Under the pieces are notes generated by a model. It was not told the DNA's origin. It made no database searches and was given only the letters and a program-made list of their open reading frames with translations. From the NCBI GenBank assembly GCA_000004985.1, contig GG738898.1: a stretch of DNA of 64,000 nucleotides; one strand, written 5' to 3'. Position 1 is the first letter of the stretch. Each line of letters begins with the position of its first letter. The position numbers were made by a program, and so were the translations under genes. Below are positions 13,501 through 64,000 of the stretch, piece by piece. This DNA is from Naegleria gruberi (taxonomy: Eukaryota).

Positions 13501-16500
13501 GAGATGTTGAAAGTTGAGAGCCGCAGGTTGTAATCTCACATCTAGACCCCGAGTAATGATCTTGACACGTGCAAGTGTTTGGGGATGTACAATTTCCATG
13601 TGAGCTACACACAAGAGATGAATTGCCTGTTGTACCATTACATATTGGAATTTCACACCTACTTCCCAATGAATTTGATGAACAAGCACATGTATCAGTA
13701 TCTACACATGTTCCATAACCAGTGCACACTTTTGGAGATGTATTCTTGATGCCAAAACAATAGTGTTCTGAACAATTTTGCCCAAAGTTACCTTGAAGAC
13801 AAGAGCAATTATTAAACTCTCCACAAATTCCCTTTCCAGAACAAACAGAGCTAATGTTTGATAGGAATGAATAGCAAGAAGTAATTTCACATTGACTTCC
13901 CATGTAATTATTCAAACATGAGCATGTATTGAATCCAACACATGTTCCCCTTGATGAACAGACAGATGTATCATTACCAAGTTTTCCGTAACATTTAGAG
14001 ATGGAACAATTATTTCCGTAATAATTATTGGAACAAACACAAGTGTCAATATCCACACATGTTCCTCTTCCAGAGCAAGTCTTGTTCGAATAGTAAGGAA
14101 TGTCGTAGCACTTGTAATCAGAACATGTGCTGCCATAGTAGGTGTGATTACATTGACAATTATTGTAACTAATGCAGGAACCTCTTCCAGAGCATACATA
14201 CTTGCTGTTAGAGAAAACTCCAGAACAAGTAGTCAATTCACACCATTGTCCCAAATAGCCAGTTTTACAAAAACAAGTATCAGGTGCTATGCAACTACCA
14301 TGCGAATTACATACAGTGGTATCATTGGAAAGTGTTCCATTACATTGAACCACACTGCAATCCATTCCAGAATAGCCAATATTACATTTGCAAGTATCAG
14401 GACTAGTGCATGATCCTTGACCACTACAGACAAAGGTAGAATTGGATGAAGAAATTCCATAGCAACTTGTCTCCTCACAATACTCTCCAAAATATCCACT
14501 ATTGCATTCACAAACTTCGTTGGCAATGCATGAACCCCTTCCTGAACAAACAAAAGATTCATTATTACTTAGCATGCCATTGCAAATGTAGAGCGAACAA
14601 TCTGTTCCATAAGCTCCATAATTACACTTACAGCTGTTGTAGTCGATGCATTGTCCATTTCCAGAACATGTACTATTGTCATTGGAGTTGATACCATAGC
14701 ATTTTGTAAAGTTACAGCTGTTGCTTAAATATGGCTCAAATGGATCGAAACTCTTTGGTGGTTCAAATATGACACTCTCTAAAATAACATACGAGTTGAG
14801 AGCCCATATAGATCCAGCAACTGTTCCATGCACGTATAGATAGTCATCCTTGGTGGCTGATATAACAGTACCAGCTATTGGTTTTGTGGAAGAACCCCAC
14901 ACTTGTGATGAAGATCCAACCACCCAGTATAAATTTCTATGTGAGGCACAATTTAAAAAGGTAATACTTGAATTTGCATAATAGAGTGACGGAACCTTAA
15001 TTACTACTGGCTCTGTTCCAATAATAACAATATTTTGAGTTGGTTTTACAAACCAATTTGTTAAAAAACAAAGAACAGCTCCATTTCTAATGATTAGAGT
15101 TGAAGAGACATTGGTTGAGGTTAAGTATTGTGTACATGCCATATTTTGAATGAGATCAATTGATTTTGTCATTTCATCAACAAGCATCTGGCCAATTGGC
15201 TCAGAGGTCAAAACAATTGAAGCATTCTTATTTGGCAAGTACGGGAAGTATGAATATTCTTGTAATTCTAAAACCATACTAGCTGTCAATAACTGATACT
15301 CTCTTCCTATTGAGGAAATGACATGTTTTGAGCAGATCACTTTGTAACCGGCGAATATATCAGTCTTGAGTTTTTCGCAATTTTCACCTCCAAATCTATT
15401 TCCACATTGGCAAGAATTGAAATCAACACATTTTCCATTTCCAGAGCAAACATTGCTATCATTGGATGGGATACCGTGACATGAATTAATTTCACAGAAA
15501 GGACCATCATAATTAAGAAAACATTTGCAAATGTTGTAGTCTGTACAAGTACCATGTGAGCTACAAACTGAGGAAACATTTCCAAGAGTTCCATTACATG
15601 TTGTAATAGAACAATTTAAACCTAATCTGTTAGCTCCACATTGACATGTGTCTGGACTTGTGCATGAGCCATGGCCAGAGCACACTGAACTATTAAAATT
15701 ACTCACTCCAAAACAGTCATAATTGGAGCAATGGTTTCCATAGTATTTGTCTGAGCAGGTGCAATTTTCAAAAGAAGAACATTTTCCATGAGTAGAGCAA
15801 ACCAAAGAATCATTTGAAAAGATGTTTCCACATTTTGTTATATCACACTCCTGTCCATAGTAATGTTCTTCACAAGAACAATTGTTAAATGGCCAACAGA
15901 TTCCTCTTCTGTGGCATACCTCACTGTGATTGGAGAGAATTCCAAAACACAATGTCATTTGACAGAATTCTCCAAAATAATTTGAGGAACAATTGCACAT
16001 ATCATTAGCTGTACACGATCCATAACCATTGCAAACATTAGTGTCATTACTAAAAGTTCCATTACATTTAGAAATTTCACACTCATATCCAATGTAATGC
16101 TCAAAACAAGAACATGAATCTTTTTGAGAACAATTTCCTCTTCCACTACAAACAAAACTATTATTCATATTACTCACACCAAAGCATTCGAAATATTCAC
16201 ATTCAGAACCCGAATATCCAGGTTGGCAAGAACAATTATTGAAATCATTGCACTGCCCAAATCCCTTACAAACGAGTGAGGAGTTTTGTTGAATACCAAA
16301 GCAGGTTACAAACTCACAATATTTTCCGTAATACCCTTCTTTGCATTGGCATGTTTCTGGTGCAATGCAAGTTCCTCTTTCTCCATGACATTCTCCTATC
16401 GTACCATTACAAAGAGGTATTTCACACTCTGATCCTCCGTAGCCCAAAGTTGAATTGCAAGAACAGTTATTGGATGATATGCATTTACCTCGTTCATTAC

Positions 16501-19500
16501 AAACAAGTGGAGAGCTGTATGAATAATTTCCACACACATAGTCAGGCGCAATTTCCAAAATCGTAGTATTGGTACTGTTTGAAGGTTCTGAAATATTAAC
16601 CGAAAATGAACAATTCCCACACAAAGTTTGATTCCAATAAGTTTCATTGAGGGGATTGCTATTATTCGAAACTGTAATGTTTTGCTGCGTATTGGTACTG
16701 TTCATAGTAATGGTTTCATTTGAGAATAGAGTGGAAGAATTTAAAGTATAGTTTTCTGAGGGTGTACTATTGAAACCTAAAGTAGTACTATTGGTTTCCA
16801 CACATGATGAACAATTAGCTGTTGTATTGGAAGAAATACTCTCATTATAGATTGTAGAGTTGGATATTTCTAATGTGCTACTACTGGTTTGATTGTTAGA
16901 GATTTGATTATCAGAATTGTCTTCATGTTTGGTTTGATTGTTAGAATGGCTGGTTTGATTTTCACTTGAGGAGGAAAAATTCGATAGAATATTTGTGGAA
17001 TTATTTGTGAGAGTTTCATTCAAGGTTTGGTTGAATGTTTGAGAATTATCTTCCAATTCTCTTCCAAATTTGTGCGCTGAGTTGTTCAAAGTGCAATTAC
17101 TTCCCACTGGACAGTTTTCTAAAGCTGTCGCATTTTCCAGCAGAGAGCTAGTTGTCTCATTGAGTGATGAGGTATTAAGAGTGGTGGAGTTCTGAGAGAA
17201 TACAGTTCCATTCACTGTGTTATTTGACTGGAAAGAAGTGTTCCACGAAGCAATTTCACTACTGGAATTAGTTGTGCTCTCAAAAGTAGTGTTGAACGTG
17301 AACGTATGATTCGACAGAATTCCAGTGCTGTTCTCCAGACCTGTTTGATTGAAAATAATTGATGAGTTCATGCTGTTATTACAATCGGGAGATGTTACAT
17401 TGAGAGAGGTATTGATCCAAATCGTGCTGTTTCCTCCTTCATACGTATCAGAACTGTTGTAATGTTGAAGGATTGTTCCATTTGAGGTACTAGCATTATA
17501 ATTTTCACTGCTTGTAGTATTTTCCCAAACGGATGAATTGGAAAAGATAGTCGATTCGTTAGAGTAGGAAGTGAAATTCGATTGTGTGCCATTCCCCATG
17601 AACCATTCAGTTGAATTAGTAACAGATGTACTGTTCTTGTCTAAGGTTTCATTTGTACCATAAAGACAAGTATCACATGTGATGTTCAACACTGTGTAAT
17701 TGGAAAAGTTTGAAGAGTTACTAGTCAAACTCTGATTGGTGGCCAATTCGGTGTTGTTAAGACGAACATTTGAAAAATTTCCTGTAGAATTGCTTCCTAC
17801 TTCTAAGGAATTGTTGGTTACATTATTTGTACTGGTAGAATTATCAGAAATGGTGGTATTAGTATTAGTTCCAGTAGAATTATCCGAATCAGTTCCGTTT
17901 GTTTGACCAACAAAGTTAGTTCCATTATTTGATTCAGTAGTATTACTTGAAGAGGTGCCATTTGATGGAGTATTATTAATAGTTGAATTAGTGTTTGTTT
18001 CATTAGTATAAATAGTTCCATTATCCAATTCAGTAGAATTAGAAGAGAAAGGAATGGTTTCATTGAACGAAGTATGTTCGTTTGTAAGATTGTGATTTGT
18101 TATATTACTTTTGGTATTTTCTAACTTGGTTTGATTTACCATATTTGTAGCATTGAGCTGTGTATTGTTTGCTAAATTCGATGAACTATTAAGGGACAAG
18201 CTATTTGTCTCATTTGAAAGGATTGTGGAATTTATGACAGTTTGATTTTCTCCTTGAAATATTTCAGTTACTGTCCCATTATTGAATGGAGAGGTACTAT
18301 TCTCATAACTTTGGTTGTAAAAGCTTTGATTAGTGACAACGGAATAGTTTACAGTGGTGTGATTAAAGTCGTGAGTTATGTTGCCATGTACTACACTACT
18401 GTTGCTCACTGAATTATTCTCAGCCCTTTCAGTTATATTTAACACTGTAGAATTTCCTTCAGATTCACTAACTTTTCCTTTTGTTGGTATTGAATCATTA
18501 AGATTTTCACTGCCATTCTTTGAAATAGGATTACTTGAATTTGTAAGTTCCGTATTGTTTTCTGCTATTAAAGAAGTATTAGAAATACTGTGGTTTGTTT
18601 TTTCATGGTTTGTATTATTCAAAATGGTGCCATTAATTGTTTCATTCAAAGATATAATAGAGCTGTTACTACTTGTAAAGTTATGCATTTCTGTATCATT
18701 AAGCTGAGATCTGGTAATATTATTATAAATAGACTCATTAACAAATGATATCTGTGTTGCATTAAGAGATACAGAATTGTTAGACAATAGAGTATTATTC
18801 TCTTCGGAGTATCTCGTAAAGTTAGCATGGGTTTGATTAAGATTAGTACTATTTATCAGTGTGGAATTATTTTCATTCACTGTTCTATTCAATTCAGAAT
18901 GGTTATGTGGAGGTGTTTCAGTGCTGTTTTCTACAACTTTGTTTGAACTATTGCTGAATGTTGAATTCCACTGGTCAGTGACATTGAACGAAGTATTTGA
19001 AAGTGGATTTGTTGAATTGAGTAGACTTGAATTTGATACAGTACTTTGGTTGCCAAGGGAGGAGCTGTTCCCAAAGGTTTCTGTTCTGTTTACAAATTCG
19101 TTTGTGTTGTTATCCAAAGAGTTTGATCCTGTTATGTTACAGTTTGTATTATTTAAAGCAGCTGTAGTATTACTATTCTCTGTTGCATTAGCAAATCCGA
19201 AAGTGCCATTAGATAAGGAATTGTTGAAAGTTGCAGTATAACCCAAGTTTAGGGAATTGTTTGAATTTGTATTGGTGATGTTTCCTAATTGTGTACTTTC
19301 TGTGTAATTTAAATCATTCGTAGAATTAGAAGAAGTGAAATTCTGATTTGTACTGTTATTGGTATGTTCATTACTTGTATGGTTTGTTGTTGTGTTATTT
19401 TCCACCAATGAATTATTTAGTGCTGTAGTGTGATTTTGAACAAAAGTCTCATTGTTCAAGGTTTGTGTGTTATTTACACCAAATAAAGTCTCATTATTCC

Positions 19501-22500
19501 CTGATTTTCCTTCCAAAGTTTGATTCCTGGTTTCGTTTAAAAAACTTGAATTAGTGATAGCAGTATTATTTTCCAATACTGAAGATTGATTGTGTAACTT
19601 TGTGTTATTCTCAAATAGAGTGGTATTAATTGTCTGAGAATCGTCGATCATAGACGTTGCGTTAGTGTTAATTGTGAGATTCTCATTATTAACTGTAGAG
19701 TTTGTTTCAATACTGGGTACAGATGAGCTATTCTGATTCTCAGTTTGGTTGTACCTACTATGAAGAGACTCGTTCCCTATCATTGTTTTGTTTTCATTTA
19801 TCAGGGTGTCATTATTTACAAGAATTGTAGAACTAATAGATCCATTGAGGTACGTATCATTGAGTTGAAAGGTAGATTCATTAAGGAAGTTTAGACTTGA
19901 ATTCAAATTTGTATAGTTCACAGATATTGAAAGTGTTTGATTTTGTGATTTGATATTGACAAAAATGGAACTGTCATTCCTCAGAGTTTCGTTCAATGTT
20001 ACATTACCAACTGTGGTGACTTTGGTAGAATTTTCTGAAGAATTTCCATTCAAGAAACCGGTTTGGTTACTTATTGCCGTTCCATTTTCGGCAGGCATTG
20101 TTTGCTTTTCGAAAGTTGTAGTGTTGTTTTCAGCAAAACTATTATTTTCGGGCCTTGTGGTATTTTGAGTGGAAACTGTAATAGACATATTGCTAGAAAT
20201 TTCTCTGGTGATGTTGGAGTTTGTCATATTAGGATTAGTATTTGCCAAGTTATTAACCACTGAGCCGTTTTCCTGCAACGTTTGATTTCTTGTTTCCAAG
20301 CTGTCATCAGATCTAGATGTCGAGTTACTAGCAATACTGGTATTTGTTATTGAAATAGTTGTGACATTACTTTGTTCAGTGTTGTTCCAATTGGTTGAGT
20401 TCATTGTTTTGTTGCTTTCAAGGTTTTCTAGTGTTAAGTTCTTTGAAGACGTTTCATTAAGAAAAACGGTTTTGTTTGTAATAGTATCTTGTGAAGAATT
20501 ACCTCCGTTAGTATTATTGCTAGTGGTGATATTGAAAGATTCTGTGCGATTGATAAATAAATCAGAAGTGTTGTTTAGCACAAGCAATGAACTGTTAAGG
20601 TTAGTGGAGTTCTCAAGTGTTATGGTTGAATTGATTGAGATTGTTGAATCATCCAAAACAAACTGGTTTGTATTATTCAAATCTGTTGAATTACTTGTTT
20701 CATTCACCAATAATACGGAGGTATTAGAATAGCTATTGGAGAGTGTGTTATTCTCAATAGCATCAGTTGTATTTAAGCCTGTTGAATTCACAATTGATAA
20801 ACCTGATTCGTTAGAATGGTTTGAATAGTTATCAAACTTTGAGCTGTTGCTCCCGGTTAATGAAAAGTTGGCTACATCATTAAAAGTTGAATTATTAACA
20901 AGACCATGTGATTGACCCGAGGGACCGCTAATTGTTTGGTTTTCTGGGAAATGACTAGTGTTGAGCCTTGTTGTATAATTTGAATCAAGAGTGTTATTAG
21001 AAATAATGTCTGAACTAGCATTATTGGAAATTCTTGTACTATTCCCAGTGGTCATGGTACAGTTATTTGAATCATTAGAAGTAATATTTGAAACAGTACT
21101 ATTTGAAATTGTTGAATTGTTCACTGTTTCATTTCCTTGCTTAGTAGCTATGGTTGCATTCAAATCAACAGAGGAGTTGGATGGAACACTTGGAATATTA
21201 GATTCGTTTGAAAAATTTGTAATATTATCAAACCTAGAGCTGTTTCTCCCATTCAAAGTTGAGTTTGTAAGGTTATTAAATGTTGAATTCTCGAATGTCG
21301 ATAGGTTACTCCCACTCAGTGACGAGTTGGTAACATCTTTTAAGGTTGAATTATTAACTGAAGTAATGTTGGTTTCATTCTCAATACCAAATGATTGATT
21401 TGAGGGACTACCACTATTTGATAATGTTTGGTTTTCGGAGCTATAACTCGTGTTCACACTAGTTGCATTTTTTGAATCAACAGTGTTATTATTAGTCATG
21501 TTTGAACTAGTATTAGATAGTATTGTATTGTTAAAAGTTTCATTTCCTTTTTGTATAACAGTTGAATTCAATTCTAAAGTAGTATAGTATATACTTGTAT
21601 CATTTTGTTCAATAGATGAATTATTTGATAAGACGGTCTCATTTAGAATAACAGATCGATTATTCCAAGTACTGTCACTTGCATTTGTTTCATTTAGTGT
21701 GACAGTTACGTTATATGTCAGACTTGTATTGAAACTGGTCTCATTCTTAATTTGTCCATAAGAATTGTTCATTGAGGATGTTTCATTTGGATGAATTAAA
21801 GTCTCATTAACATTTACATCTGATTGGTTTGATGCTGTGTAAGTACTATTCCTTCCTGGACCAGTAGAGTTATTGAAAGTCGTCTCGTTGTTAGATGTTG
21901 AATTGTTTGATGTCAATTCACTTTCGTTGAATGTTGTATTTGAAGATGATCCAGTATCGTTTTGTCCATTACTGCTAACATTTAAACTTGTTTGGTTTGT
22001 TAAAGAAGTATTGGAATACATAGAAGAGTTGGAAACTGGTTCGTTAGTAAAGGGTGTATGTTGATCGGTTGCATTGTCCAGTAATGTCGAGTTATTAACG
22101 ACGTACGAGGTAGTATTGCTCTCAAAATAGGATGTATTGCTCTCTACATTTAGCTCCGTAGTGCCATTACTGACTTGTGAATCAGTTGTTTGGTTATCTT
22201 CTCTAAATATTCCAGTACTATTTGTTGAACTAGTATTATTTACAAGACTACTATTATCGCTAGAAATAGTAGCATTATCAAAACTAAAGTTCTTGGCGGA
22301 TGAGGTATTAACTGCCTCTGTGATTGTGGAAGTATTACATGCCAAACCGGTGTATCCATCTGTACAATTGCAAGTATTAAAATCAACACAGGTTCCATAT
22401 CCACTGCAAGTTGATGAGCTGTTCGATTCCACATCAAAACAGTATGTATATTGACAATGTGTTCCAAAGAACTGTTCCTCACATGTACATGACGACGTTT

Positions 22501-22945
22501 CATTACTGAGCCAAGAACAGTTACCATGTCCTGAACATGTGATCATGGTACTGTTATTATACTCACTTTCATTCCATGTCTTGGCTATCGAAGAACACTC
22601 CACATACTCGCACTCTTCTCCATAAAATCCCAACTGGCATTCACATTCAGTGTCATTTGTACAATTTCCTCGTCCAGAGCATATATTTATGCTAAGATTA
22701 TCATCAGTGAATAGCCTTAATTTGCAACTGTTGTGTCCCGATGATGATGTAGCAATTACTTTCGATAAAATTGCTCTCTGAATTATTAAGCATTGTATCA
22801 CCAATATTATCATGATCATAATATTTGTTATTGTTGTTATTCGCGTTTTCCATTTTACTCGCCTCCACACTTTGAATTTCTCATCCAAAAAGGTTGCTCC
22901 TTCACACGTATGATGATGAGAGTGAAGATGAACACGAATCGGCAT
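7546..22945 (-). CDS. Giant (>5,100 aa) single-exon surface protein: signal peptide, EGF-like (tenascin/ComC-type) repeats, ~1,600-aa NxS/T sequon-dense stalk, ~60 EGF-like repeats, beta-rich REJ/PKD-like region, GPS motif, one TM helix, Ser/Thr/Pro-rich cytoplasmic tail
   Basis: This is an uninterrupted 15.4-kb minus ORF from ATG at 22945 to gap 7545. The EGF repeats follow a ~33-aa periodicity of C..SG.G.C.....C.C...Y.G..CE. A GPS-like ...C..F...YSCSLQLKNDTHAYCKCSHFTNVFVIQ sits immediately before TM VAAAVFSAAIVCGLSCMFLLLFLVCFF at about 8440-8520. Codon usage is consistent throughout. Confidence 0.85.
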
Positions 22946-52733: not shown

Positions 52734-55366
52734 ATGAACAAGACATTTGGCATGTTATCATGTCTGTTACTCTGTCTCATTGTATGCCTCGTCAGTGAAG
52801 AGACACACGCATTGACAGCAACAGAATTATTGCAAGTTAGAGCAACTCTCCTTTCAAATGTCACTTCAATTCCTTATTCATATGTTGGTTATTTGTTTAG
52901 TCATGGCAGCAATTCTGTTCCAATTATTGTTGGTTCTGGAGGTAATGCAGTAGTAGTTGCAGCTACTAGCTCCAATTCCTTGTCCACAGCTGGTCGAATT
53001 TGTGCATTTGGACATAACGGTTATGCATACACATCTGACATGACATCTGGCACAGCTCAATTATTGAAAAATTGTGCTAAATGGACTACCAAAAACAAAG
53101 CCAATGTCAGTTACATGCTACACGGAGTCAGTCAAAGTGGTGGCTCCACTTTTTATAACTCAATTTCAGGATTTTCATTGAACACATCAAAGAATGCATT
53201 CGACGAATTGGTTCGTCCATTAGAAAGCGTTGATTTACTAATTTTGAATTTAAATTCACTCTCAGGTGAGGCAACCTCCACTCAAATCCAAATGCTCTCC
53301 GACTTTTTGAATAGAGGTGGTGGAATTATTTGTGTAACTACTGCTTGGGCTTATTCCATTTCTGGAAATAGATTTCCTGGAAATGTGTTCTTTTCCAGAT
53401 TGGGAGTTTCATTCTATACAGCTTATTTTGAAGGTAGCCCATTTGTGGCATCTACTAAGGATTTGAGTGAAGTGAATGCTTATTTCAAATTGGAACAAAT
53501 TCAAAATACCTTTTCTTTATATGGAAATGTTTCTACAGATGATGTGAATACAGTTGGAAATATGCTATCCAATGTGTATCCAACATTGCCACAGCCAATT
53601 ACCTTAAATTCCATTGAAACGAATCAAAAAGCCAAAACTGTCTATGATTCCATTTGTGGAAGTACAACAATTTCCTTCCCAGTTTCGTCTTCTTTCCAGA
53701 AATTCTGTGTAGTCATGGTGGACACACTAAACAAGGCAAACATTTTACCAATCTCAAATAATCCACAAGTTTTGGCAGGTGAAAACTTCCCNNNNNNNNN
53801 NNNNNNNNNNNNNNNNNNNNNNNNNNNNNNNNNNNNNNNNNNNNNNNNNNNNNNNNNNNNNNNNTATATCGTATAGTGGAGGTACCATTTACTTTGATGT
53901 GTCCAAAATTCCGTTATCCTTCACTGCAACCATCACAGGACAAGTGGTAAAAANCTCCCTTTTTTAGAAATGACCTTCACACAGATTCTGATTGGAAAAA
54001 TACCATTAGAAATTATCCAGGACCTTGGGTAGAAGTTGAATCCGATTATTTCGTATTCAATGTTGAGTCGTCCTATGCCAGAAACTTGACAGAATTGACC
54101 AGTGTCACAAATTACTGGAAAAAGGTTTTGGAGCTTTATTATGAACTCTCCCAAAGACCAATTAGAGATTATAAGGAAAGAATGCAAATTGATATCGATA
54201 TTTCAATTGGATATATGCATTCTGGATACCCAATTATGGCATTTCAGGACCAAAATGAAGGAACTATTAAGGCAGTCAACCCTGCCAACATGGCTCTTGC
54301 TTCAAAAACTCCTGGACGTTGGGGACATTACCATGAATTGGGACACAATTTCCAAGTTTCTGATTGGACCTACTCTCAAGCAGTTGAAGTAACTTGTAAT
54401 ATTTTCTCTTTATATTTGGAAGAGAATTTCCCAGATTCGGCCAATACTTATGGAAAGTCGTTTAATCCACCGAGAGGTCTTGAGACCACTTTTAAGGGAA
54501 ATACTCAGGATTATAAGGGGGATTGGACAAGTGCTGGTTTATTGTTTTATTTGGATTTGATTCAAGCTTTCGGTTGGGTTTCTATTCGAAAGGCATTTGC
54601 TGAATATTATACAGCAGCTTCTGGAACTTTACCAACCAGCGAGGATGAAAAGAGAGATCAATGGGTTGTAAGATACAGTAAGATTGTTGGTAGAAATCTT
54701 GGGCCTTTCTGTGATGCTTGGAGTTTCCCAATTTCACAATCAGCCAAAAGTCAAGTTTCTAATTTAACTTCATGGATGCCAAATAATTTCATTGTTGGAT
54801 GTTCAGTAGCTCGTTTCTCTGATTCACCTTGTGCTTCATTAACCATTCAAGATAATTCCTATGCCAAGTCAACCACCTATGAAGTGAAAATTGTAACTTG
54901 GACACCAGTGAGAAGTATTTATGGTGAACGTTTCATTTTCACTTTCGGTGGTGATTCTCTTCCTCAATTACAAACTGGAACAACAGCTCTCACCTTATTG
55001 GATGGAACAACAAGTTTGAACTCAACTGCTGTTGTGACTAATAATAATGGAACGAGTATTACACTTTCGACCAATGTTGTCGAGTTTGTCAAATCTGGAC
55101 AACTATTGAAATTCTCCTTCCAAGCAAAGAATAGTGTCAAGATTGGAAGCTTTACCACTTCAATTAAGATATTGGATTCAAAGAATGTATTGGTAAATGT
55201 TGTGGAGAGACCATTAGAGTTTACCAATTCAATTGTCATTCCAACTTCATCTTCAACAGTGGTTGGAAAGAAGAGTACAGTTACTGGCAATTCTACCAAG
55301 AACGGGATGAATGTAGTGTTAATTGCATTCTTGATTGGTTGGGTATTATTTGTTTATTCCTTCTAG
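52734..55366 (+). CDS. Secreted/anchored peptidase M60-like (enhancin-like) zinc metallopeptidase with HEXXH motif
   Basis: A signal peptide (MNKTFGMLSCLLLCLIVCLVS) is followed by an N-terminal accessory region. The catalytic region contains WGHYHELGHNFQ (HEXXH). A hydrophobic C-terminus (GMNVVLIAFLIGWVLFVYSF) is compatible with a TM or GPI signal. The gene is split into two ORFs by N-gap 53792-53864 and an ambiguous base at 53954. It is probably one continuous gene. Confidence 0.7.
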
Positions 55367-55436: not shown

Positions 55437-56978
55437 TTATTGCTTCTTTGCAACTACCTTCTTAACCTTCTTGACAACTCTCTTCTTTTGTGGTTTAACA
55501 ACTCTACCAGTACCACGAGAGAGGACAAACTTGATATTGAAAGCATCATTTGGTAAAGCGTAATACTTCATGACAAATGACTTGATAATAGCTCTGGAAG
55601 TAGTTTGGTGAGTTTGAATATACTTGACACGATCATTAAAAAGTTTCTTCTTCAAATATTTTGGAGAAGTCTTATTCAATGACTTGCTCTTCTTAAACTT
55701 GGCAACTAAACGTCCCTTATCGTTGAGTGAAAGTCTGACACGTTGTCTGAGCCATTTGGATTTGATCTTTTGAATATTCAAAATGTTTTGACCAATAACA
55801 TAGGAAACCTTAACCAAGGTCTTTGTCTTGTGGAAACAAATGAGTGGTTTGAGGAAGAGATCATTGGTAACTGATTGAGATTCAATCTTTTCCTTATTAC
55901 TAGAATTCTTGCTGACTGTACAAATGTATGGGAGTTTGTTCTTCTTTAAAGCAAGTCTAATGTAGGTCTTTTCAGTATAATCGACTGGCTTTGGAAGACT
56001 CTTCAAAAGTTCATCCTTGTTAGAGGCAGTTTCATAAATCTTCTTCTTCTTTTCAATAGCAGCAACTTGCTTTTCATACTTGGTCTTGAGGAGTTTATGC
56101 AATCCCTTTGGAAGAGTAATCTTACGAGAGGAGAGAACAGCGGCAGCTTCTTTCAATTTGAGAGCGACCTTTTCAAGAGTTGTCTTGGCCCTCTTGATCA
56201 AAATGGTACAAGTGGCAATGTGCTTTTTGTATTGTTCAATCTTGACCTTGCTAACTTGGAGAACTCCCTTCAATTTGTTTTTAATGACCTCAGTGGTAGC
56301 AGCTTCTAATTGTTTTTCCCATTCGACAACCTTCTTCTTTTCTTCTTCCAATTTCAAGTTAAAGACCTTGGAACGAGCATTTTCATAGTTCAAAACCTTG
56401 AAGACATTATTTCTATGTTTGACCAAATAGTTCAAGACAAAGATTTGTCTTCTCAAATAAAAGTACATGGCATTGGAATATCTCTTTTGAGCAATTAAAA
56501 CATCCAACTTGGCAAAATTGACAAGGTATGGAGCAATAAACTTGGTCTTGCCATGCTTTTCCTTTTGAGCCTTGTAAATAGAGACGGCTTGTGACTTACT
56601 CTTCAGAGCAATCTTGTAACGTTTCAACAATTTGGCAATGTGTAAGTTGATCAACTTTTTCAAACGGTTGTATGCAATGGCCTTCTTGGTCTTGAGCTTT
56701 TTGAGATTGTTCAAAGCATTCTTCAACTTGTCATTGTTCAACTTTTTAAGTTTTTGCAATCTGGTGACATTTCTTTCAGCCTTAATCTTGTTATGTTGAT
56801 GTTCAGCCTTGTTTTCCTCATCCTTGCTATCTTCCAAATTCTTCTTTGTCATGACAACCAATTGTTGCAATGGATAGAGTTTCTTATTAATAATAGATCT
56901 CTTTTGTCTGAGAGCCTTGATTATTGTTCGAGCATCAGAGAGTTTTCTAGTGAGGCCAACAAAATGTGAGCCAAACAT
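55437..56978 (-). CDS. Lys-rich basic coiled-coil-like hypothetical protein (513 aa)
   Basis: This is a long ORF with AAG/TTG/GCT/AGA codon usage typical of the window. It has low-complexity K-rich sequence and no recognisable domain. Confidence 0.45.
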   Translation of the reverse strand: MFGSHFVGLTRKLSDARTIIKALRQKRSIINKKLYPLQQLVVMTKKNLEDSKDEENKAEHQHNKIKAERNVTRLQKLKKLNNDKLKNALNNLKKLKTKKAIAYNRLKKLINLHIAKLLKRYKIALKSKSQAVSIYKAQKEKHGKTKFIAPYLVNFAKLDVLIAQKRYSNAMYFYLRRQIFVLNYLVKHRNNVFKVLNYENARSKVFNLKLEEEKKKVVEWEKQLEAATTEVIKNKLKGVLQVSKVKIEQYKKHIATCTILIKRAKTTLEKVALKLKEAAAVLSSRKITLPKGLHKLLKTKYEKQVAAIEKKKKIYETASNKDELLKSLPKPVDYTEKTYIRLALKKNKLPYICTVSKNSSNKEKIESQSVTNDLFLKPLICFHKTKTLVKVSYVIGQNILNIQKIKSKWLRQRVRLSLNDKGRLVAKFKKSKSLNKTSPKYLKKKLFNDRVKYIQTHQTTSRAIIKSFVMKYYALPNDAFNIKFVLSRGTGRVVKPQKKRVVKKVKKVVAKKQ

Positions 56979-57730
56979 AATAGATTACAATTATAATTAT
57001 TTCTCTTTGCATGTCTGACACTACGTTTCAAATACTTTTTGTGATTTAATTGTTGTTCACTTTGAGTAGACAAGGTAGCAACTCCACTTGAATCAAGAGC
57101 CTCATCAAGACCATATCCTTCACTAGTATTTGAAGAGGCTTCCTCAATCTCAGATTCACTATCCTCATCATTTAAAGTTTCTACCAATTCCTCATTTTCA
57201 TCCGAACTAACTCCTTCACTAGCAGCAGCAGCTTCCTCCTCCAAGTCCTCTCCATTCAATCCCTCTTCCTGATTCTCCAACAAGTGTCCCAACAAATTTG
57301 AAATCTCCTCATCATTATTCAATTCATGAGCGGTGGTAGCTGTGTTGAGAGTATTTTTTTCAAAGGCTCCAAACGACTCCTCATCACTCAAAACAACGGA
57401 GCCGTAACTTTCCAACTGCTCTACCGGTCTCAAGGAGGTCATTGTCATGGCTGATGTTGTTGATGATGATGTTGTTGTGGCGGCAACAAGTTCATTCTCT
57501 TGTATGATGGCAGCGGTTGCGGCTTGTTCGCTGTTTGGGGAGGCCCACGACGAGGTTAAACCGCCTAATCGATTCTGTTTGGCACTCTCATCGATACCAC
57601 CAGCTTGCACCACTGTTGTTGTTGATGATGATTGGAAGAGAAAGATGAGCAAGCAGGTGAGAGCGAAAAAGAGAAGCAAACGGTTGCTCCAACTTTTCAT
57701 TTTGTTTTTTTTTGAGATGTGACTTGACAT
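56921..57730 (-). CDS. Secreted acidic hypothetical protein (269 aa); may be the N-terminal part of the 55437-56978 ORF
   Basis: It has a signal peptide (LLLFFALTCLLIFLFQSSS) and then an E/D/S-rich sequence. It overlaps the downstream ORF by 58 nt in a different frame. I found no convincing intron. Confidence 0.4.
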   Translation of the reverse strand: MSSHISKKNKMKSWSNRLLLFFALTCLLIFLFQSSSTTTVVQAGGIDESAKQNRLGGLTSSWASPNSEQAATAAIIQENELVAATTTSSSTTSAMTMTSLRPVEQLESYGSVVLSDEESFGAFEKNTLNTATTAHELNNDEEISNLLGHLLENQEEGLNGEDLEEEAAAASEGVSSDENEELVETLNDEDSESEIEEASSNTSEGYGLDEALDSSGVATLSTQSEQQLNHKKYLKRSVRHAKRNNYNCNLLCLAHILLASLENSLMLEQ

Positions 57731-58045: not shown

Positions 58046-59377
58046 TTATCTCAAGTAAAGAGCACCATTTCTGTTGGTGAGTGTAGCACTAGCAACACTT
58101 GTTGTATCATAGACGTATTGAACACCAGGATTGAATCCAGGACCTGGACCTCCCTCAGGACATGAAGGATAAGTATAAGTTGCCCAAACCGTGCCTGCAC
58201 CTGCATTCATGAAAGAGTCAGTTGTAGCACGTGGAATACCCATTCTGAACCCCATACAGTGCATATCTGATGTCTTACTATAGGTGACATAGGTTGGAAG
58301 AGTTAGAACATTCTTCAAATTGTAACATGTTGCAGGAATGGCAGCATAATAAGTTTGCATCGTTGGATCACTGTATGCTGTTACTCTTGTTCTTTGAACG
58401 TAATCTCTCAATCCTTGTGGAATTGTACAATAGGCACTATATTGCCAATCATTTGTAAAGAAATTAGAAAAAGCAATAGTTGCTGCATTACCACTGTCAG
58501 TGGATGCTCTAATCTGAGTGGAAATATTCATCAAATCAGATGTTGGAATGTGGAATGTAATAGTATCATTTGTAGTGGTGGCAGCATTATCATCAAAGAC
58601 GTGGAAGTGAGCTCCGTAATAGTCTCTTCTAATACCAGCAAACATGGTCCATCCTCCACCGTCTGTATCCATATCACAATAGACTGTCATGACTGTATTT
58701 CCAGGTTTAATTTGATACAATCCACTTCCTTCACCCAAGTACATTCTAGGAGCTATTGGATTTCTATACTCCTTACATGATCTTGCATAGGTTCCATCGG
58801 CATATTTAAATCCACTCACTGAATTATAGCTGGTTGTTGTACCATTGACTGTTTCACAATTATCTCCAATGTAAGGTGATTTACAGGAACACTTATTGGA
58901 GGATGTACAGTTACCACGTCCAGAACAAACTGAGGCGCTTGTGGCGAGTACACCAAAACATGCCATTTGCATGCAATTGATTCCGGCCCATCCTGAGGCG
59001 CATCCTTGGTTGCAATCATCACCACTATAATGTTGACATGTTGTTGTGATGGTGTTAACTTCCAATGAGAGACTATCGATGGCGGTTTGAATTTTATCAG
59101 ATTGTTTTTGTCTCAGTATTATAATTGAGGTCAAATTTGCATTTCCAGTAGAGTTGAGGAGGGAAATAGCAGACGTGATTTTAGCCTTTGTACTCACTAG
59201 CTTTGCAAGTTCTGCATTAAGGTCGGTAAGGTAGGATCTAATGCTGCATCCTCCTGGGAGAGTGCATGTAAAATTTTGTTGTCCATTCACAACATGATAT
59301 GTTGCGGATGATGATAACAACCCAACCAAAATGAGCAGCAAGACTCGTGTGGAAATGAGATGAGCGATGCCTTGCAT
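58046..59377 (-). CDS. Secreted EGF-like plus fibrinogen-related-domain (FReD/FBG) protein (tenascin/ficolin-like)
   Basis: It has a signal peptide and a helical N-terminal region. One tenascin-type EGF follows (CFGVLATSASVCSGRGNCTSSNKCSCKSPYIGDNCE). The FBG core is ...SGLYQIKPGNTVMTVYCDMDTDGGGWTMFAGIRRDYYG.. The VYCDM.TDGGGWT motif is diagnostic. Confidence 0.8.
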   Translation of the reverse strand: MQGIAHLISTRVLLLILVGLLSSSATYHVVNGQQNFTCTLPGGCSIRSYLTDLNAELAKLVSTKAKITSAISLLNSTGNANLTSIIILRQKQSDKIQTAIDSLSLEVNTITTTCQHYSGDDCNQGCASGWAGINCMQMACFGVLATSASVCSGRGNCTSSNKCSCKSPYIGDNCETVNGTTTSYNSVSGFKYADGTYARSCKEYRNPIAPRMYLGEGSGLYQIKPGNTVMTVYCDMDTDGGGWTMFAGIRRDYYGAHFHVFDDNAATTTNDTITFHIPTSDLMNISTQIRASTDSGNAATIAFSNFFTNDWQYSAYCTIPQGLRDYVQRTRVTAYSDPTMQTYYAAIPATCYNLKNVLTLPTYVTYSKTSDMHCMGFRMGIPRATTDSFMNAGAGTVWATYTYPSCPEGGPGPGFNPGVQYVYDTTSVASATLTNRNGALYLR

Positions 59378-60162: not shown

Positions 60163-63100
60163 ATGCCAGCTACTATCTTGAACGGTTCTACCACTTCAAG
60201 TTCTGGTCTCAATATTAACCTTTCATTGTTGGTAAGTTTACATATTTCACATGAGCTTAATTATAATTCTTTATTGTTGTTGTTGCTGATCTTTCTCCAC
60301 ACCAATGACATCTGGCACTGTGATCTCTCTTACTCTTTCGATATTTTAATATCACATGCTAAACTAATTACTTTGAATGGCCATGTTGTTTCTTTTCTAA
60401 ATTCTCCACTTTGACCAAAACGCGGTCAATTCAACTTTTTAAAAAATTGGCATCACATTTGATCTTCTGAATCTTTGCAACGCGATTTTCCTTCTTTGCT
60501 CCTTTGGCGCTTTTTCTGGTGCGGTTCAATCATCATCAATATTAATTTATTGTTAAAATTACTTTTTTAAATGATGAATCCGTGTTGAGTAGAAAGGAGG
60601 TACTATTAGTCAGACAATTGTATGTTTTTTAAATATTTTGTATGTTTAATATTTTGAATGTTAGGTTGGTGCAATTATTACAGCTTTGGTAGTTGCTTCC
60701 ACAGTTGCTACTATTATCTTGGTTTCAGTTGGTGTTGGTTATTCTAGTCCTCAACCGTATGTACTTTTAAAATTCATTATTTGAAATTAATTGAAATCTA
60801 GTCAACCTGATTTTGCTACTACTTACAAGAGAGTGCCTATTACTGTTGATGTACTCATAAATGATAACGATCCACGTGGTGGTAATCTTACTTTGACTCA
60901 AATTGTTGATCAACCAAAGTATGGTACTGTCAAGATTCTTTCTCGTTCCCAAGTTGTTTATCAATCCATTGGTTCTTTCTCTGGAAATGACACTTTCAGT
61001 TATGAAGTTAGTAATTCCTTTGTTACAGCCAATGCTACTGTTACTGTTCAAGTTTTGAATAGACCTCCTCAAGCTGTTCCAATCTATAAGAAGATCTCCA
61101 AGAATGCTAATAAGGCTCTCGTTGATATTTTCAATTATATTGGTGACAATGATGAAAAGATTACTGATATTGATAATGATGTCTTGTATGTTACTGGCTT
61201 CGCTGATCAACAAGTTACCAGTGGTAATGCTCAAAGTTTAGGTGCAATTGAAATTGATCCTTACAATGGTTTCTTGTACACTCCTGTTAATGGTTTCAAT
61301 GGTATCGAACAATTCAAGTATACCATCTCAGATGGTAATGACACTGCTTCTTCAACTGTTACTGTTGAAGTTGAAAATGATGCTCCTGTTGCTACTGATG
61401 ATGTTTACAGAATTCCAAAATATAGTAGTTTGGAATTGCTCATTTTACAAAATGATTATGATATCAATGGTGATGATTTCAATGTTACCAACGCTGTTGG
61501 TGCTGGTTATGGTGCTCTTCGTGTTCAAGACAAGACTGTTGTCTATTTCACTTCAAGTGTTTTAACCAAAAAGTATACTGATTCTTTCGAATATTCAATT
61601 TCTGATAGTCAAGCTTCAGGATCTGCTGTAGTTTCTGTTCAAGTTTACAATACTGAACCAACTGTCTACTCCAAGACTGTCACTGTTGGAAAGTCCTCTT
61701 CCAATAACCTCATTTCAATTGATTACTCTGATCCTGATGGAAAGGATGTTGTCGTATTGACCAAAGTTACTCCTGCATTGGCCTCTCTTAATCCAGCTGC
61801 TTCCATGCAAGTTGCTAAGGGTACTAAACGTGTCAACCTTGATTGTTGTGATTGGGTTAGCGTTGAAACTAATAATTACACTATTGTTTATACTCCAACT
61901 CCTGGAGTTGTTTACTCACAAACTTTGGATATTTCCATGACAGATGGTGAATCTGATGGCTATGGTAAGATTACTATTAATGTAGTCAATAATCCACCTG
62001 TTGCTGTTGATGACACTGTTACTTGTAATAAGAATCAACAAGTTTTGATTAATGTTCTTGCCAATGACTATGATGTTAACCCAGGCGATACTGAACTTCT
62101 TCAATTAACTAATAACGGTTGGCAATCAACTACCAAGAATGGTGGTTCTGTTTCTATTTATAATGCTACACATGTATTGTATGTTGCTCCAAAGGGTAGT
62201 TTGGCTACTGATGTTGCCTCCTATAGAATCTATGATCAAAGCAAAGATGTACAAGGTAATCCAGATTCTACTGGTTTCTCAACTGGTAAGATTAGTATTA
62301 ACATTATCAATAATCCACCTGTTCCTGTTGATGATGTTTTTACTATTTCAAAGGGTCTTAATGCCACTTTGAACGTTTTGAATAATGATTATGATCCTAA
62401 TTTCGATCTTATTTCAACAATTAACTCTGTTGATAGATCAACTGTTAAAAATATCTTGGCTACTATTGTTAAGAATTCTGGTGAAAATGATACCTTATTC
62501 TATACTGCTGCTAATGAAGAGTACACTGATTACCTTACTTATGATGTAATTGATGTTGACGGTTTGGTTTCTGAAAATAAGGCCACTGTCACTTTGAATG
62601 TTGTCAATAATGCTCCAGTTGCTAGAGATGATACTTATAGTGTTAACTGGAATCACAATATTTTGTGCCCTGTCAAGACTAATGATGCTGATATCAATGG
62701 TGATTTGCCTTCTTCCAAGATTGAAATTTATCAAAATCCATCTAATGGTGTTGTTGAAGTTATTAGTGATAGTGTAAGATATACTCCAAATACTGCATTT
62801 GTTGGTGTTGATACTTTCCAATACAAGTTGAACGATGGTAGTGTTGCCAATTTCTTGTCAAATGCTGCTACTGTTACAATTAATGTTTTGAATACTGCTC
62901 CTGTTGCTGTTGATGATACTGCCACTACTCACTGGAGAAATGATGCTGGTGTTTTAGTCAGTGTTTTGGTTAATGATTCTGATAATGAAGGTGATTCCTT
63001 GTCTGTTACCAATGCTCTAGTTGATGCTGTACTGCTTCAGTTTTTGATAGTCAAACTGTCAAGTTTGTTTCAACTCAAACCTCTGCTACTGTTGGTACTA

Positions 63101-64000
63101 AGCAAATTAAGTATACCGTCTCTGATGGAAACAAGAATACCATTGGAAATGTCAATGTCTTGGTTACAAATACCAAACCAGTCGCTTTTGCTGATGCTTA
63201 CACTTACCACTGGGCTGCTCCAAAACAAACATTGAGTGTCATGTCTAACGATAAGGATGCCGACCTTGATCCAATTTCAATCAAATCTGTTTCTGGAAGT
63301 GCTGCCGCTGTTAAGAATGGAAATGATATTGATTATACTCCAAAGAAGGATGGTGTTACTGATACCTTCCAATATGTCATTACTGATACTGTTACTGATG
63401 CTGATCCAGCAACTGTCACTGTTACTTTCACTAACAATGACAAGCCAGTTGCTTCAAGTGTTTCAACTTCTATTCACTGGAGAGCTTTCGCTGCTCAATC
63501 TAATCAACAAGATTTCTCTGTTTATTCCTCAACAACTGATGCTGATGGTGACGCTCTTACATTGACTGTTAATCCAACTGCTACTGGTATTTCTGGTGCT
63601 TCATGTAGCAAGACCACTGATTCAATTGCCAAGGTTAGAGTTACAGCTCCAACCAAGACTACTGGTTCTGCCACCTGTTCCTTCTCAGTTTCTGATGGTT
63701 TGGCAAATACTGGATCAAAGACTGCTACTGTTACTATAACTAACAATGCTCCAACATGTACTGATATTACTGTTTTCTTCAATGCTATCTATGTGTCAGT
63801 TGGTCAAACATTCTCCGTTTCTTCATCTGTTAGTGATGCTGATTCTGCTGATGTTCCTTATTTGGCAGCTAGTAGTGCAATCATGTCTGGTTCATTCTCA
63901 GGTGATACATTCTCTGTTTCAAATGGTAACCTCCTCTTCAAACCAAATGGTCAATTGGGTAATCGTGTTTATGGTTATAAGGTTACTGATGGTATTGTTG
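60163..64000 (+). CDS. VCBS/cadherin-like tandem-repeat membrane protein, copy 2 (continues beyond window end)
   Basis: Exon A is 60163-60231 (MPATILNGSTTSSSGLNINLSLL), with donor GTAAGT. A 433-nt intron follows. Exon B is 60665-60756 and encodes a TM helix (VGAIITALVVASTVATIILVSVGVGY), with donor GTATGT. A 45-nt intron follows. Exon C starts at 60802. It contains at least 11 ~95-aa repeats with PVAVDD...NVLANDYD...GD motifs. There is an apparent 1-nt frameshift near 63030, after which the coding frame continues to 64000. Confidence 0.8.

What the first reader, a model, noticed from the sequence alone, without database searches (positions are those of the whole stretch)
58046..59377. Fibrinogen-related domain (FReD) fused to a tenascin-type EGF in a non-metazoan-looking genome
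VYCDMDTDGGGWTMF is the hallmark of the fibrinogen C-terminal globular domain, which is used for carbohydrate and pattern recognition in ficolins, tenascins and angiopoietins. FReDs are overwhelmingly metazoan. Finding one with a signal peptide and an EGF repeat identical in type to those of the giant gene is notable. It may reflect lateral acquisition or an ancient lectin-like recognition module.
Basis: partly seen in the sequence, partly recalled or inferred. Interest (0 to 1): 0.55.

Follow-up and report, generated by a model that had tools for sequence, protein, structure and literature searches.

The report
Divergent fibrinogen-like lectin domain in Naegleria
A Naegleria gruberi gene encodes a secreted protein whose end domain has the fibrinogen/intelectin lectin fold but belongs to a divergent, mostly prokaryotic branch of that superfamily, so it is probably an old gene transfer rebuilt into a ficolin-like layout and not an animal-type fibrinogen domain.

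Summary
The ORF is real: window 58046-59377, minus strand, 443 aa, identical to an NCBI 'predicted protein' of Naegleria gruberi. The motif VYCDMDTDGGGWTMF lies at residues 232-246. Sequence profiles detect only a ~50-residue module: Pfam Fibrinogen_C positions 14-47 of 221, and NCBIfam GGGWT_bact at 43.8 bits. This is FReD subdomain A, also called the 'NEC' module. The canonical FReD P-domain motifs (DxDxD loop, GWW, NLNG) are absent.

Full-length relatives are few. They are two N. gruberi paralogues, one protein on a tightly packed prokaryote-like contig (sister to the Naegleria clade, 100% bootstrap), and Myxococcales-type bacterial proteins. All end in 'GAxWxR'; intelectins end similarly in 'FYR'. 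The module itself is common in predatory and episymbiotic bacteria, archaea, cyanophages and some protists.

The architecture is signal peptide, two heptad helices, one EGF-like unit of the giant-gene type, then the globular domain. I read it as an oligomeric secreted lectin or adhesin, probably of prokaryotic origin. It is moderately interesting.

The parts
58046..59377 (-). Complete single-exon ORF, 443 aa plus stop. It equals the N. gruberi 'predicted protein' P0001.
59303..59377 (-). Signal-peptide-like N-terminus (res 1-25: MQGIAHLISTRVLLLILVGLLSSSA). The cleavage site is inferred.
   Evidence: Hydrophobicity maximum at res 2-30; helix 2-21 in the full-length model. No signal-peptide predictor was available.
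59027..59242 (-). Two long helices (res 46-76 and 80-117) with heptad periodicity; putative coiled-coil or oligomerisation stalk, conserved in paralogue P0005.
   Evidence: a/d positions 78-89% hydrophobic against 25-32% elsewhere; AF2 helices with pLDDT 65-81
58853..59038 (-). Cys-rich EGF-like segment (res 114-175): a 4-Cys partial unit plus one complete 6-Cys unit (res 140-174, nt 58856-58960). Same type as the 39-aa repeats of the giant ORF. Absent from paralogue P0005.
   Evidence: Pfam EGF_2 21.7 bits, sub-threshold; tblastn to nt 11900-16500 and 22300-22750, up to 53% identity; regex pattern and 39-aa period
58628..58792 (-). FReD subdomain-A / 'NEC' / GGGWT_bact module (res ~196-250), with the disulfide pair Cys201-Cys234 and the motif VYCDMDTDGGGWTMF (nt 58640-58684).
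   Evidence: Pfam PF00147 res 216-247; NF040941 res 215-246; hhalign 98.3-98.7% to intelectins and FReDs over 49-56 columns; profile vs PDB
58049..58627 (-). Rest of the globular domain (res 251-443). Sequence-divergent, predicted to complete a FReD/intelectin-like fold. Clade-conserved Cys317, Cys351, Cys374, Cys406, the HFHVFDD motif and EGG. Ends in the terminal strand GALYLR (nt 58049-58066).

Best explanation
The gene encodes a secreted, probably oligomeric, lectin-like or adhesive protein. It has four parts: a signal peptide, a two-helix heptad stalk, an EGF-like spacer taken from a Naegleria EGF-repeat repertoire, and a C-terminal ~250-residue globular domain. That domain belongs to the fibrinogen-related (FReD) fold superfamily. 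It sits in a divergent, largely prokaryotic branch with three hallmarks: a Cys...YCDxxxDGGGWT module, a sequence-unique middle part, and a C-terminal strand ending '...GAxW/Y-L/V-R'. In predicted structure this branch is closer to intelectins (X-type lectins) than to ficolins or fibrinogen.

The most likely history has three steps. An ancestor of N. gruberi acquired the domain from a prokaryote. The gene was fully adapted to the host genome and duplicated (three paralogues today). In this copy an EGF unit was inserted between stalk and head.

The likely mechanism is multivalent binding by the clustered globular heads to surface carbohydrates or acetylated groups on bacterial prey or on the amoeba or cyst surface. 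This would give agglutination, capture or adhesion.

Shown: the ORF, the module, the family membership and the predicted fold. Inferred: secretion, oligomerisation, direction of transfer and ligand class.
For: Module: Pfam PF00147 at 27.5 bits and NF040941 at 43.8 bits.

Family: the exhaustive HMMER search found full-length relatives P0005 (41% identity) and P0010 (36-40%), plus the Myxococcales-type group at 21-26%. All end in GAxWxR, and 139 of 265 retrieved proteins end in three hydrophobic residues plus a basic one. Intelectins end in ...VLIFYR.

Origin: in the NJ tree, (target, P0005) has 97% support and adding P0010 gives 100%. The P0010 contig has same-strand genes 4 and 34 bp apart and a neighbour with the same pilin-like N-terminus. 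There are 202 confirmed prokaryotic genome loci. No close orthologue of either paralogue exists elsewhere.

Native integration: 310-kb scaffold, GC3 0.30 within the range of the neighbours, and an EGF unit shared with the giant gene.

Architecture: heptad helices.

Functional theme: prokaryotic relatives are fused to pilin N-termini, and cyanophage tail-fibre-like proteins share the fold.
Against: Beyond the first ~75 residues of the domain there is no significant sequence similarity to any FReD or intelectin. The fold assignment of the remainder therefore rests on one AF2 model built from a 13-sequence alignment, with low confidence at domain residues 149-160 and 199-231. That second stretch is roughly where FReD and intelectin ligand sites would lie.

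The canonical FReD Ca2+ loop and the GWW and NLNG motifs are absent. In a forced alignment the intelectin ligand-site residues have no conserved counterparts. Carbohydrate binding is therefore not supported by conserved site residues.

The prokaryotic nature of the sister sequence P0010 is inferred from a 2.7-kb unbinned contig. Genomes of other Naegleria species and other Heterolobosea could not be searched directly. There is no expression, localisation or oligomerisation data.
Confidence: 0.6

Rival explanations
1. It is a canonical metazoan-type FReD (ficolin, tenascin or angiopoietin-like). It was either acquired from an animal or inherited from a common eukaryotic ancestor, and it uses the usual P-domain Ca2+/acetyl-binding site.
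Against: The Pfam match covers only 34 of 221 profile positions. The family profile and hhalign reach only the module. There is no DxDxD loop, GWW or NLNG. The closest full-length relatives are a protein on a prokaryote-like contig and bacterial proteins, not animal ones. Intelectins score higher than any classical FReD.
Confidence: 0.05
2. Vertical inheritance. The FReD-like domain is ancient in eukaryotes, has diverged beyond recognition in Naegleria and has been lost or remains unsampled elsewhere. The prokaryote-like relative P0010 would then be a transfer out of eukaryotes, or a mis-assigned contig.
For: The module occurs in other protists. Phalansterium has 14 tandem units, and apicomplexan CCp proteins carry a stand-alone NEC module (PMC2211786). 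N. gruberi has three paralogues with native codon composition. The P0010 contig has 34% GC, close to Naegleria, and is taxonomically unassigned.
Against: No other eukaryote has a full-length relative in an exhaustive search of 1.84 billion cluster representatives that includes EukProt-derived entries. The next-nearest group after P0010 is bacterial, including a Myxococcales MAG in a normal bacterial gene neighbourhood. The gene packing on the P0010 contig (4-bp and 34-bp gaps, paralogous pilin-like neighbour) is not eukaryote-like.
Confidence: 0.2
3. [not shown]
For: All sequence methods stop at the module. Mean pLDDT is 69, with 64 residues below 50. The same module is known to combine with other C-terminal parts, such as COLFI and stand-alone NEC.
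Confidence: 0.12
4. Bacterial contamination or a mis-assembly in the N. gruberi assembly, not a real amoeba gene.
For: The domain family is mostly prokaryotic. Neighbouring genes also carry 'bacterial' Pfam families such as Big_9 and Peptidase_M60.
Against: The gene lies inside a 310-kb scaffold. Its GC and GC3 match the neighbours. The FReD-like domain is fused in one ORF to an EGF unit that matches the giant Naegleria gene 35-47 kb away. Two further paralogues lie on other large scaffolds.
Confidence: 0.02

Closest known systems
Intelectins / X-type lectins (human intelectin-1 4WMQ/4WMY, Xenopus XEEL 4WMO, lamprey LSVL 7E1E)
   Different: Identity is only 12-15% over the structural alignment. 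hhalign is significant for just 49 columns. The intelectin ligand-site segment (C-N-T-E-H-H..., then the FPE and W/Y positions) has no conserved counterpart in a forced alignment. The Cys pattern differs. The domain is ~30 residues shorter. Intelectins are reported throughout chordates, whereas this family is found in prokaryotes and Naegleria.
Canonical fibrinogen-related domains (Pfam PF00147: ficolins, tachylectin-5A, FIBCD1, tenascins, angiopoietins, FGL1, fibrinogen beta/gamma)
   Different: Only 34 of 221 profile positions match. There is no P-domain Ca2+ loop (DxDxD), no GWW...C...NLNG disulfide region, and no terminal MK[IV]RP. The relatives are prokaryotic rather than metazoan.
NCBIfam NF040941 'fibrinogen-like YCDxxxxGGGW domain-containing protein' (GGGWT_bact) and the 'NEC' module of Pradel et al. 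2004
   Same: The target passes the NF040941 cut-off (43.8 against 30 bits). Its nearest relatives carry that NCBI name. The module is the alpha-beta3 disulfide-stabilised unit that PMC2211786 defined as shared by fibrinogen, ficolin, intelectin, neurexin, the collagen C-propeptide and Plasmodium CCp proteins.
   Different: Those definitions cover only ~46-60 residues. Here the module is the front end of a conserved ~250-residue domain subfamily (target, P0005, P0010, P0146, P0139, P0078, P0152-4). No Pfam or NCBIfam model in the libraries searched covers the rest of it.
Cyanophage tail-fibre-like 'Fibrinogen C-terminal domain' proteins (e.g. P-SSM4 Q58LR8, S-CAM8 R9TQT3)
   Same: Foldseek E 1.6e-6 to 6.7e-4 over ~300 alignment columns. 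They are a non-metazoan use of the fold in a presumed receptor-binding role.
   Different: Identity is 12-14%, TM-scores are 0.42-0.46, and the context is a phage structural protein. No sequence-level relationship was tested.

Membership tests
Canonical FReD (Pfam PF00147 Fibrinogen_C) | Profile match across the ~220-residue domain (subdomains A, B, P) | tested here: not met
   The match passes the gathering score (27.5 against 22 bits) but covers only profile positions 14-47 of 221. The family profile against PDB and hhalign also stop at the module.
Canonical FReD (Pfam PF00147 Fibrinogen_C) | Subdomain-A disulfide and the YCDM...GGGWT motif | tested here: met
   Cys201 and Cys234 flank the module, with VYCDMDTDGGGWT at res 232-244. 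Both are invariant or nearly invariant in alignments A1 and A2.
Canonical FReD (Pfam PF00147 Fibrinogen_C) | P-domain Ca2+-binding loop (FSTxDxDND type) and the GWW...C...NLNG region that forms the ligand pocket (motifs from my own knowledge, visible in the A3 consensus) | tested here: not met
   The regex search finds no DxDxD outside the module itself, and no WW, NLNG or [FY]S[TS]xDxD. The classical FReD consensus A3 shows KFSTxDxDND...WWY..C...NLNG.
Canonical FReD (Pfam PF00147 Fibrinogen_C) | Three-dimensional FReD fold | tested here: met
   [not shown]
Intelectin / X-type lectin | Intelectin-type decorated FReD fold | tested here: met
   [not shown]
Intelectin / X-type lectin | Sequence homology across the ~280-residue CRD | tested here: not met
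   hhalign is 98.3% but over 49 columns only. HMM against PDB covers profile positions 9-75 only. The forced global alignment scores lower than the local one (86.9 against 103.6).
Intelectin / X-type lectin | Ligand-site Ca2+ ligands and aromatic box. Positions 260, 288 and 297 are given in PMC9434060; N260/E262/H263/E274/W288/Y297 are from my memory of Wesener et al. 2015. | tested here: inconclusive
   In the forced alignment the intelectin 'RVTGCNTE(T/H)HC' aligns to 'FRMGIPRATTD' with no conserved N, E or H. That alignment is low-confidence, the model is poor in this region (pLDDT <50 at domain residues 199-231), and no model coordinates were available for a superposition.
Intelectin / X-type lectin | C-terminus ending on a hydrophobic strand plus Arg (...FYR-stop) | tested here: met
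   Intelectin consensus ...AAVLIFYR; target ...GALYLR, relatives GAIFLR, GAVWLR, GAFWVR.
NCBIfam NF040941 GGGWT_bact | Score above the curated cut-off for the 46-position model | tested here: met
   43.8 bits against cut-off 30, E 2e-11, res 215-246 on model positions 11-46. P0005 scores 44.1 bits and P0010 72.4 bits.
Full-domain 'GGGWT...GAxWxR' subfamily (defined here: target, P0005, P0010, P0146, P0139, P0078, P0152-4) | End-to-end alignment of ~235-260 residues with conserved Cys134/Cys168 (domain numbering), R107, G193-x-R195 and terminal G-A-x-x-x-R | tested here: met
   Local HMM hits cover model positions 2-237 of 237 at 203-340 bits. Invariant columns are listed.
EGF-like domain (Pfam EGF_2 / teneurin-tenascin type) | Six-Cys EGF pattern and a profile score above threshold | tested here: inconclusive
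   The six-Cys pattern is present. EGF_2 scores 21.7 bits against cut-off 22.1, EGF_Teneurin 14.8 against 24.3, and DUF7949 20.8 against 27.

The most novel reading that the evidence does not exclude
The 'GGGWT...GAxWxR' proteins would be an unrecognised third branch of the fibrinogen-related superfamily. The branch would be centred in prokaryotes, as pilin-linked or surface adhesins of predatory and episymbiotic bacteria and archaea, and in phage fibres. It would be the sister or source of the animal intelectin (X-type lectin) fold. Naegleria would have captured one copy and independently assembled a ficolin/angiopoietin-like oligomeric lectin (stalk + EGF + head), a case of convergent invention of an innate-immunity-style pattern-recognition molecule in a bacterivorous amoeba.
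Probability: 0.25. Interest if true: 0.7.

Novelty: new variant of a known kind. Interest (0 to 1): 0.42.

Why it matters
FReD and intelectin lectins are textbook animal innate-immunity receptors. This gene shows the same fold in a free-living heterolobosean amoeba. Here it belongs to a branch whose other members are bacterial, archaeal and phage surface proteins, and it has been rebuilt with a coiled-coil stalk and an EGF spacer into an animal-like layout.

If the domain binds microbial glycans, that would give a tractable example of how a phagotroph recognises prey. It would also support a prokaryotic origin for the intelectin/FReD fold. On a practical level, the C-terminal ~190 residues of this subfamily are not covered by any Pfam or NCBIfam model in the libraries searched. 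Current annotation ('Fibrinogen_C') therefore overstates what is actually detected.

Tried and rejected
1. Word-index homology search with the whole protein returned only the protein itself and an EGF-only hit, P0002. The same tool, queried with alignment A1, failed to return three of its own query members. Its negatives are therefore weak evidence. The exhaustive HMMER run was what revealed the family.

2. Local hhalign against classical FReDs and intelectins and the profile against PDB gave no sequence support beyond the module. The forced global alignment gave only three weak co-linear anchors. I do not treat it as evidence about site residues.

They returned only module-level matches, so no donor lineage can be named.

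4. The AFDB50 fold library was unavailable.

5. The full-length AF2 model has low confidence (pLDDT 52). I used it only for the two N-terminal helices; the EGF region was not resolved.

6. A giant-virus route for the transfer gets no support, because the BFVD hits are cyanophage proteins only.

7. Literature searches for Naegleria + fibrinogen, non-metazoan FReDs and 'GGGWT' found no description of this protein or subfamily. The only relevant papers were the NEC-module paper (PMC2211786) and intelectin papers.

8. Contamination was rejected on scaffold size, composition and the fused native EGF unit.

9. There are no paralogues of the globular domain elsewhere in the window. The antisense ORFs at 58294-58780 were not tested, and I regard them as incidental.

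Full report
1. WHAT IS THERE. The window has ~35% GC, long intron-poor ORFs and a 5316-aa giant gene. The finding corresponds to one uninterrupted minus-strand ORF at 58046-59377, 443 aa. It is 100% identical over its full length to an NCBI/UniRef/EukProt 'predicted protein' of Naegleria gruberi on a 310-kb scaffold. So the organism is a heterolobosean amoeba and the gene model is already public, but unnamed. The quoted motif VYCDMDTDGGGWTMF is residues 232-246 (nt 58640-58684).

2. ANATOMY. Residues 1-25 are the most hydrophobic stretch of the protein and look like a signal peptide. No other comparably hydrophobic segment ranks in the scan, and the protein ends on the last strand of the domain. 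Residues 46-76 and 80-117 are predicted helices (pLDDT 65-81 in an otherwise poor full-length model). They have clear heptad periodicity: a/d positions are 78-89% hydrophobic against 25-32% elsewhere. This stalk is conserved in the paralogue P0005.

Residues 114-175 are Cys-rich, with a 4-Cys partial unit and one complete 6-Cys EGF-like unit (140-174). That unit has exactly the pattern repeated at least 24 times, with a 39-aa period, in the giant ORF 6995-22945. Identity reaches 53% at the protein level and 70-78% in short DNA stretches. Pfam EGF_2 scores 21.7 bits, just under its 22.1 cut-off, and the teneurin-type EGF models score well below theirs. 'EGF-like, same type as the giant gene' is therefore right, and 'tenascin-type' is loose. 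Residues ~184-443 form the globular domain.

3. HOW MUCH OF IT IS A FReD BY SEQUENCE? Only the front. Pfam Fibrinogen_C passes its gathering score (27.5 against 22 bits, E 3.3e-6) but aligns residues 216-247 to profile positions 14-47 of 221. NCBIfam NF040941, 'fibrinogen-like YCDxxxxGGGW domain-containing protein' (GGGWT_bact, 46 positions), scores 43.8 bits against a cut-off of 30. Phmmer against PDB hits ficolins, fibrinogens, tenascins and angiopoietins only at residues ~215-250. The best and longest hits are intelectin-family lectins: lamprey serum lectin 7e1e at residues 184-275, then intelectin-1 and XEEL.

A family profile against PDB and hhalign against classical FReDs (98.7%, 56 columns) or intelectins (98.3%, 49 columns) also stop at the module. 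This module is the disulfide-stabilised N-terminal alpha-beta3 unit of the fibrinogen globe. Pradel et al. named it 'NEC' and found it in fibrinogen, ficolin, intelectin, neurexins, collagen C-propeptides and, stand-alone, in Plasmodium CCp proteins (PMC2211786). The canonical P-domain hallmarks, visible in my classical FReD consensus (KFSTxDxDND...WWY...C...NLNG), are absent from the target.

4. THE REST OF THE DOMAIN IS CONSERVED, IN A SMALL SUBFAMILY. An exhaustive HMMER search of 1.84 billion cluster representatives with residues 180-443 found 979 proteins at E<=1e-3. Nearly all match only query positions ~6-80, often in up to 15 copies per protein spaced ~200-270 residues apart. End-to-end relatives are few:
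- P0005, 41% identity, an N. gruberi paralogue (XP_002674073) with the same signal peptide and stalk but no EGF.
- P0015, a 106-aa N. gruberi fragment (XP_002677618), 66% identity.
- P0010, 36-40% identity, from a 2.7-kb Logan contig.
- A group at 21-26% identity: P0146 from a Myxococcales MAG, plus P0139/P0266, P0078 and P0152-4.

They share the two module cysteines, two further invariant cysteines, R107, G-x-R and a C-terminal end '...G-A-x-[WYF]-[LVF]-R-stop'. Of the 265 proteins retrieved, 139 end in three hydrophobic residues followed by a basic one. Intelectins end in '...AAVLIFYR-stop'. Every member of the subfamily hits Pfam Fibrinogen_C only at profile positions ~2-50 (one reaches position 88), so no Pfam or NCBIfam model in the libraries searched covers the remaining ~190 residues.

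I conclude that the whole domain, not just the motif, has the FReD-superfamily fold and lies nearer the intelectin branch. The caveat is that this rests on one medium-confidence prediction.

A forced global profile alignment places three weak motifs in the same order as in intelectins (LLRYxT ~ QIRAST; LCxGxRVTGC ~ HCMGFRMG; terminal FYR ~ YLR). The intelectin ligand-site residues that follow the second motif are not conserved. [quoted passage not shown]

6. DISTRIBUTION AND ORIGIN. A scan of one genome per GTDB species found 202 confirmed loci. They fall in Myxococcota, Bradymonadia, Bdellovibrionota, many Patescibacteria (Gracilibacteria, Peribacteria, Komeilibacteria, Saccharibacteria, Minisyncoccus), Methanosarcinales and Woesearchaeota archaea, Methylobacterium and Odoribacter. 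Many carriers have prepilin or archaeal-pilin N-termini, He_PIG domains, discoidin domains or EGF domains. Cyanophage tail-fibre-like proteins share the fold. Among eukaryotes, the amoebozoan Phalansterium has a 3103-aa protein with Sushi, EGF and 14 tandem units. The premise that FReDs are 'overwhelmingly metazoan' therefore fails for this module.

For the full-domain subfamily, an NJ tree groups the two full-length Naegleria paralogues (97% bootstrap), with P0010 as their sister (100%) and the bacterial groups outside. P0010 sits on a contig with same-strand genes 34 and 4 bp apart. Its downstream neighbour has the same 'K/R-G + hydrophobic' pilin-like N-terminus, so I read it as prokaryotic, possibly archaeal. 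This is an inference.

Neither Naegleria paralogue has any close orthologue in the 5.8-billion-sequence collection, and no other eukaryote has a full-length relative. The target's GC3 (0.30) is typical of its neighbours (0.24-0.44), and it is fused to a native EGF unit. The most parsimonious history is therefore an old prokaryote-to-Naegleria transfer, then duplication and domain shuffling. My estimate is about 0.6. Vertical inheritance with loss remains possible (about 0.2), because I could not search other heterolobosean genomes directly and the word-index tool is demonstrably lossy.

7. LIKELY FUNCTION. The design is a signal peptide, a coiled-coil-like stalk, an EGF spacer and a C-terminal FReD/intelectin-like head. 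It parallels ficolins, angiopoietins, tenascins and intelectins, where oligomerisation clusters weak binding sites into a high-avidity surface-pattern binder (established knowledge of those families). Prokaryotic and phage relatives are attached to pilins, surface repeats or tail-fibre-like proteins, which also points to cell-surface recognition.

I therefore propose a secreted multivalent lectin or adhesin that binds glycans or acetylated groups on bacteria (prey capture or agglutination) or on the amoeba or cyst surface. The ligand site is unknown. The classical and intelectin site residues are not recognisably conserved, and the model is weakest where they would lie. Clade-invariant H-x-H-x-F-[DE]-[DE] (residues 257-263) and E-G-G motifs are candidates only.

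8. VERDICT. It is a genuine FReD-superfamily domain in a protist and probably a lateral acquisition. It is not an animal-type FReD, and the module is not rare outside animals. I file it as a new variant of a known kind: a divergent, prokaryote-centred, intelectin-like branch of the FReD superfamily, here rebuilt into a ficolin-like architecture. Interest is moderate (0.42). The fold, the module and bacterial homologues are already known, and transfers into Naegleria are not surprising (my own background knowledge). The subfamily is uncharacterised, and the convergent architecture and the possible link to the origin of intelectins are worth a follow-up.

Noticed in passing
window 6995-22945 (-): A single 5316-aa ORF with at least 24 strict 6-Cys EGF-like units at a 39-aa period (aa 2215-3609, nt ~11900-16500, more near 22300-22750). 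It also has a REJ domain (PF02010, 66 bits) in the C-terminal third. This looks like a giant PKD1/REJ-like surface receptor in an amoeba.
   Followed up: partly
window 60791-63235 (+): An 814-aa ORF made of 'bacterial' Ig/cadherin-like repeats (Big_9 x7 at 222 bits, Cadherin_4 x6, Cadherin_5 x5). It lies 1.4 kb from the FReD-like gene and is another candidate for prokaryotic ancestry or a surface adhesin.
   Followed up: no
window 54086-55366 (+): A Peptidase_M60 (enhancin-like) match of 151 bits to profile positions 56-275. It could be a secreted mucin- or glycoprotein-degrading metalloprotease. The ORF as listed starts at TTG, so the true start or an upstream exon is probably missing.
   Followed up: no
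window 56921-57730 (-) and 55437-56978 (-): A 269-aa Ser/Thr/Glu-rich protein with a signal-peptide-like N-terminus and no Pfam hit. Its 3' end overlaps the start of the next ORF (513 aa, no Pfam hit) by 58 nt. They could be one gene with an intron or frameshift.
   Followed up: no
P0004 (Phalansterium solitarium, EukProt) and P0003 (JGI metagenome, 275-kb contig): Giant proteins of 3103 and 4035 aa with 14-15 tandem FReD-like units every ~200-270 residues. P0004 also has Sushi and EGF domains. One unit of P0003 matches the fibrillar collagen C-propeptide model almost end to end (COLFI positions 22-226 of 233).
   Followed up: partly
L080 (Logan ERR11420198 contig, 2687 bp), genes 803-1816 and 1820-2470: The closest non-Naegleria relative (P0010) and its downstream neighbour share a nearly identical pilin-like N-terminus (...GFLLVLSI(V/A)S(L/I)VYAVGFHQTSEV(V/L)PG...) but have different C-terminal domains. 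This looks like a cassette of surface or pilus proteins with swappable heads.
   Followed up: partly
L002-L079 (GTDB genome loci) and the hit lists: Prokaryotic carriers of the GGGWT module are concentrated in predatory or episymbiotic lineages: Myxococcota, Bradymonadia, Bdellovibrionota, Patescibacteria including Minisyncoccus archaeiphilus, and Woesearchaeota. This hints at a role in attaching to other cells. The enrichment was not tested statistically.
   Followed up: no
P0015 (N. gruberi XP_002677618, 106 aa): The third Naegleria paralogue is annotated as a fragment starting exactly at 'MTVYCDM...'. It diverges after ~65 residues, so it is probably a truncated gene model or a pseudogene.
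   Followed up: no
tool behaviour: The word-index protein search did not return P0005, P0010 or P0078 even when they were rows of the query alignment. Negative results from that tool should not be read as absence.
   Followed up: yes
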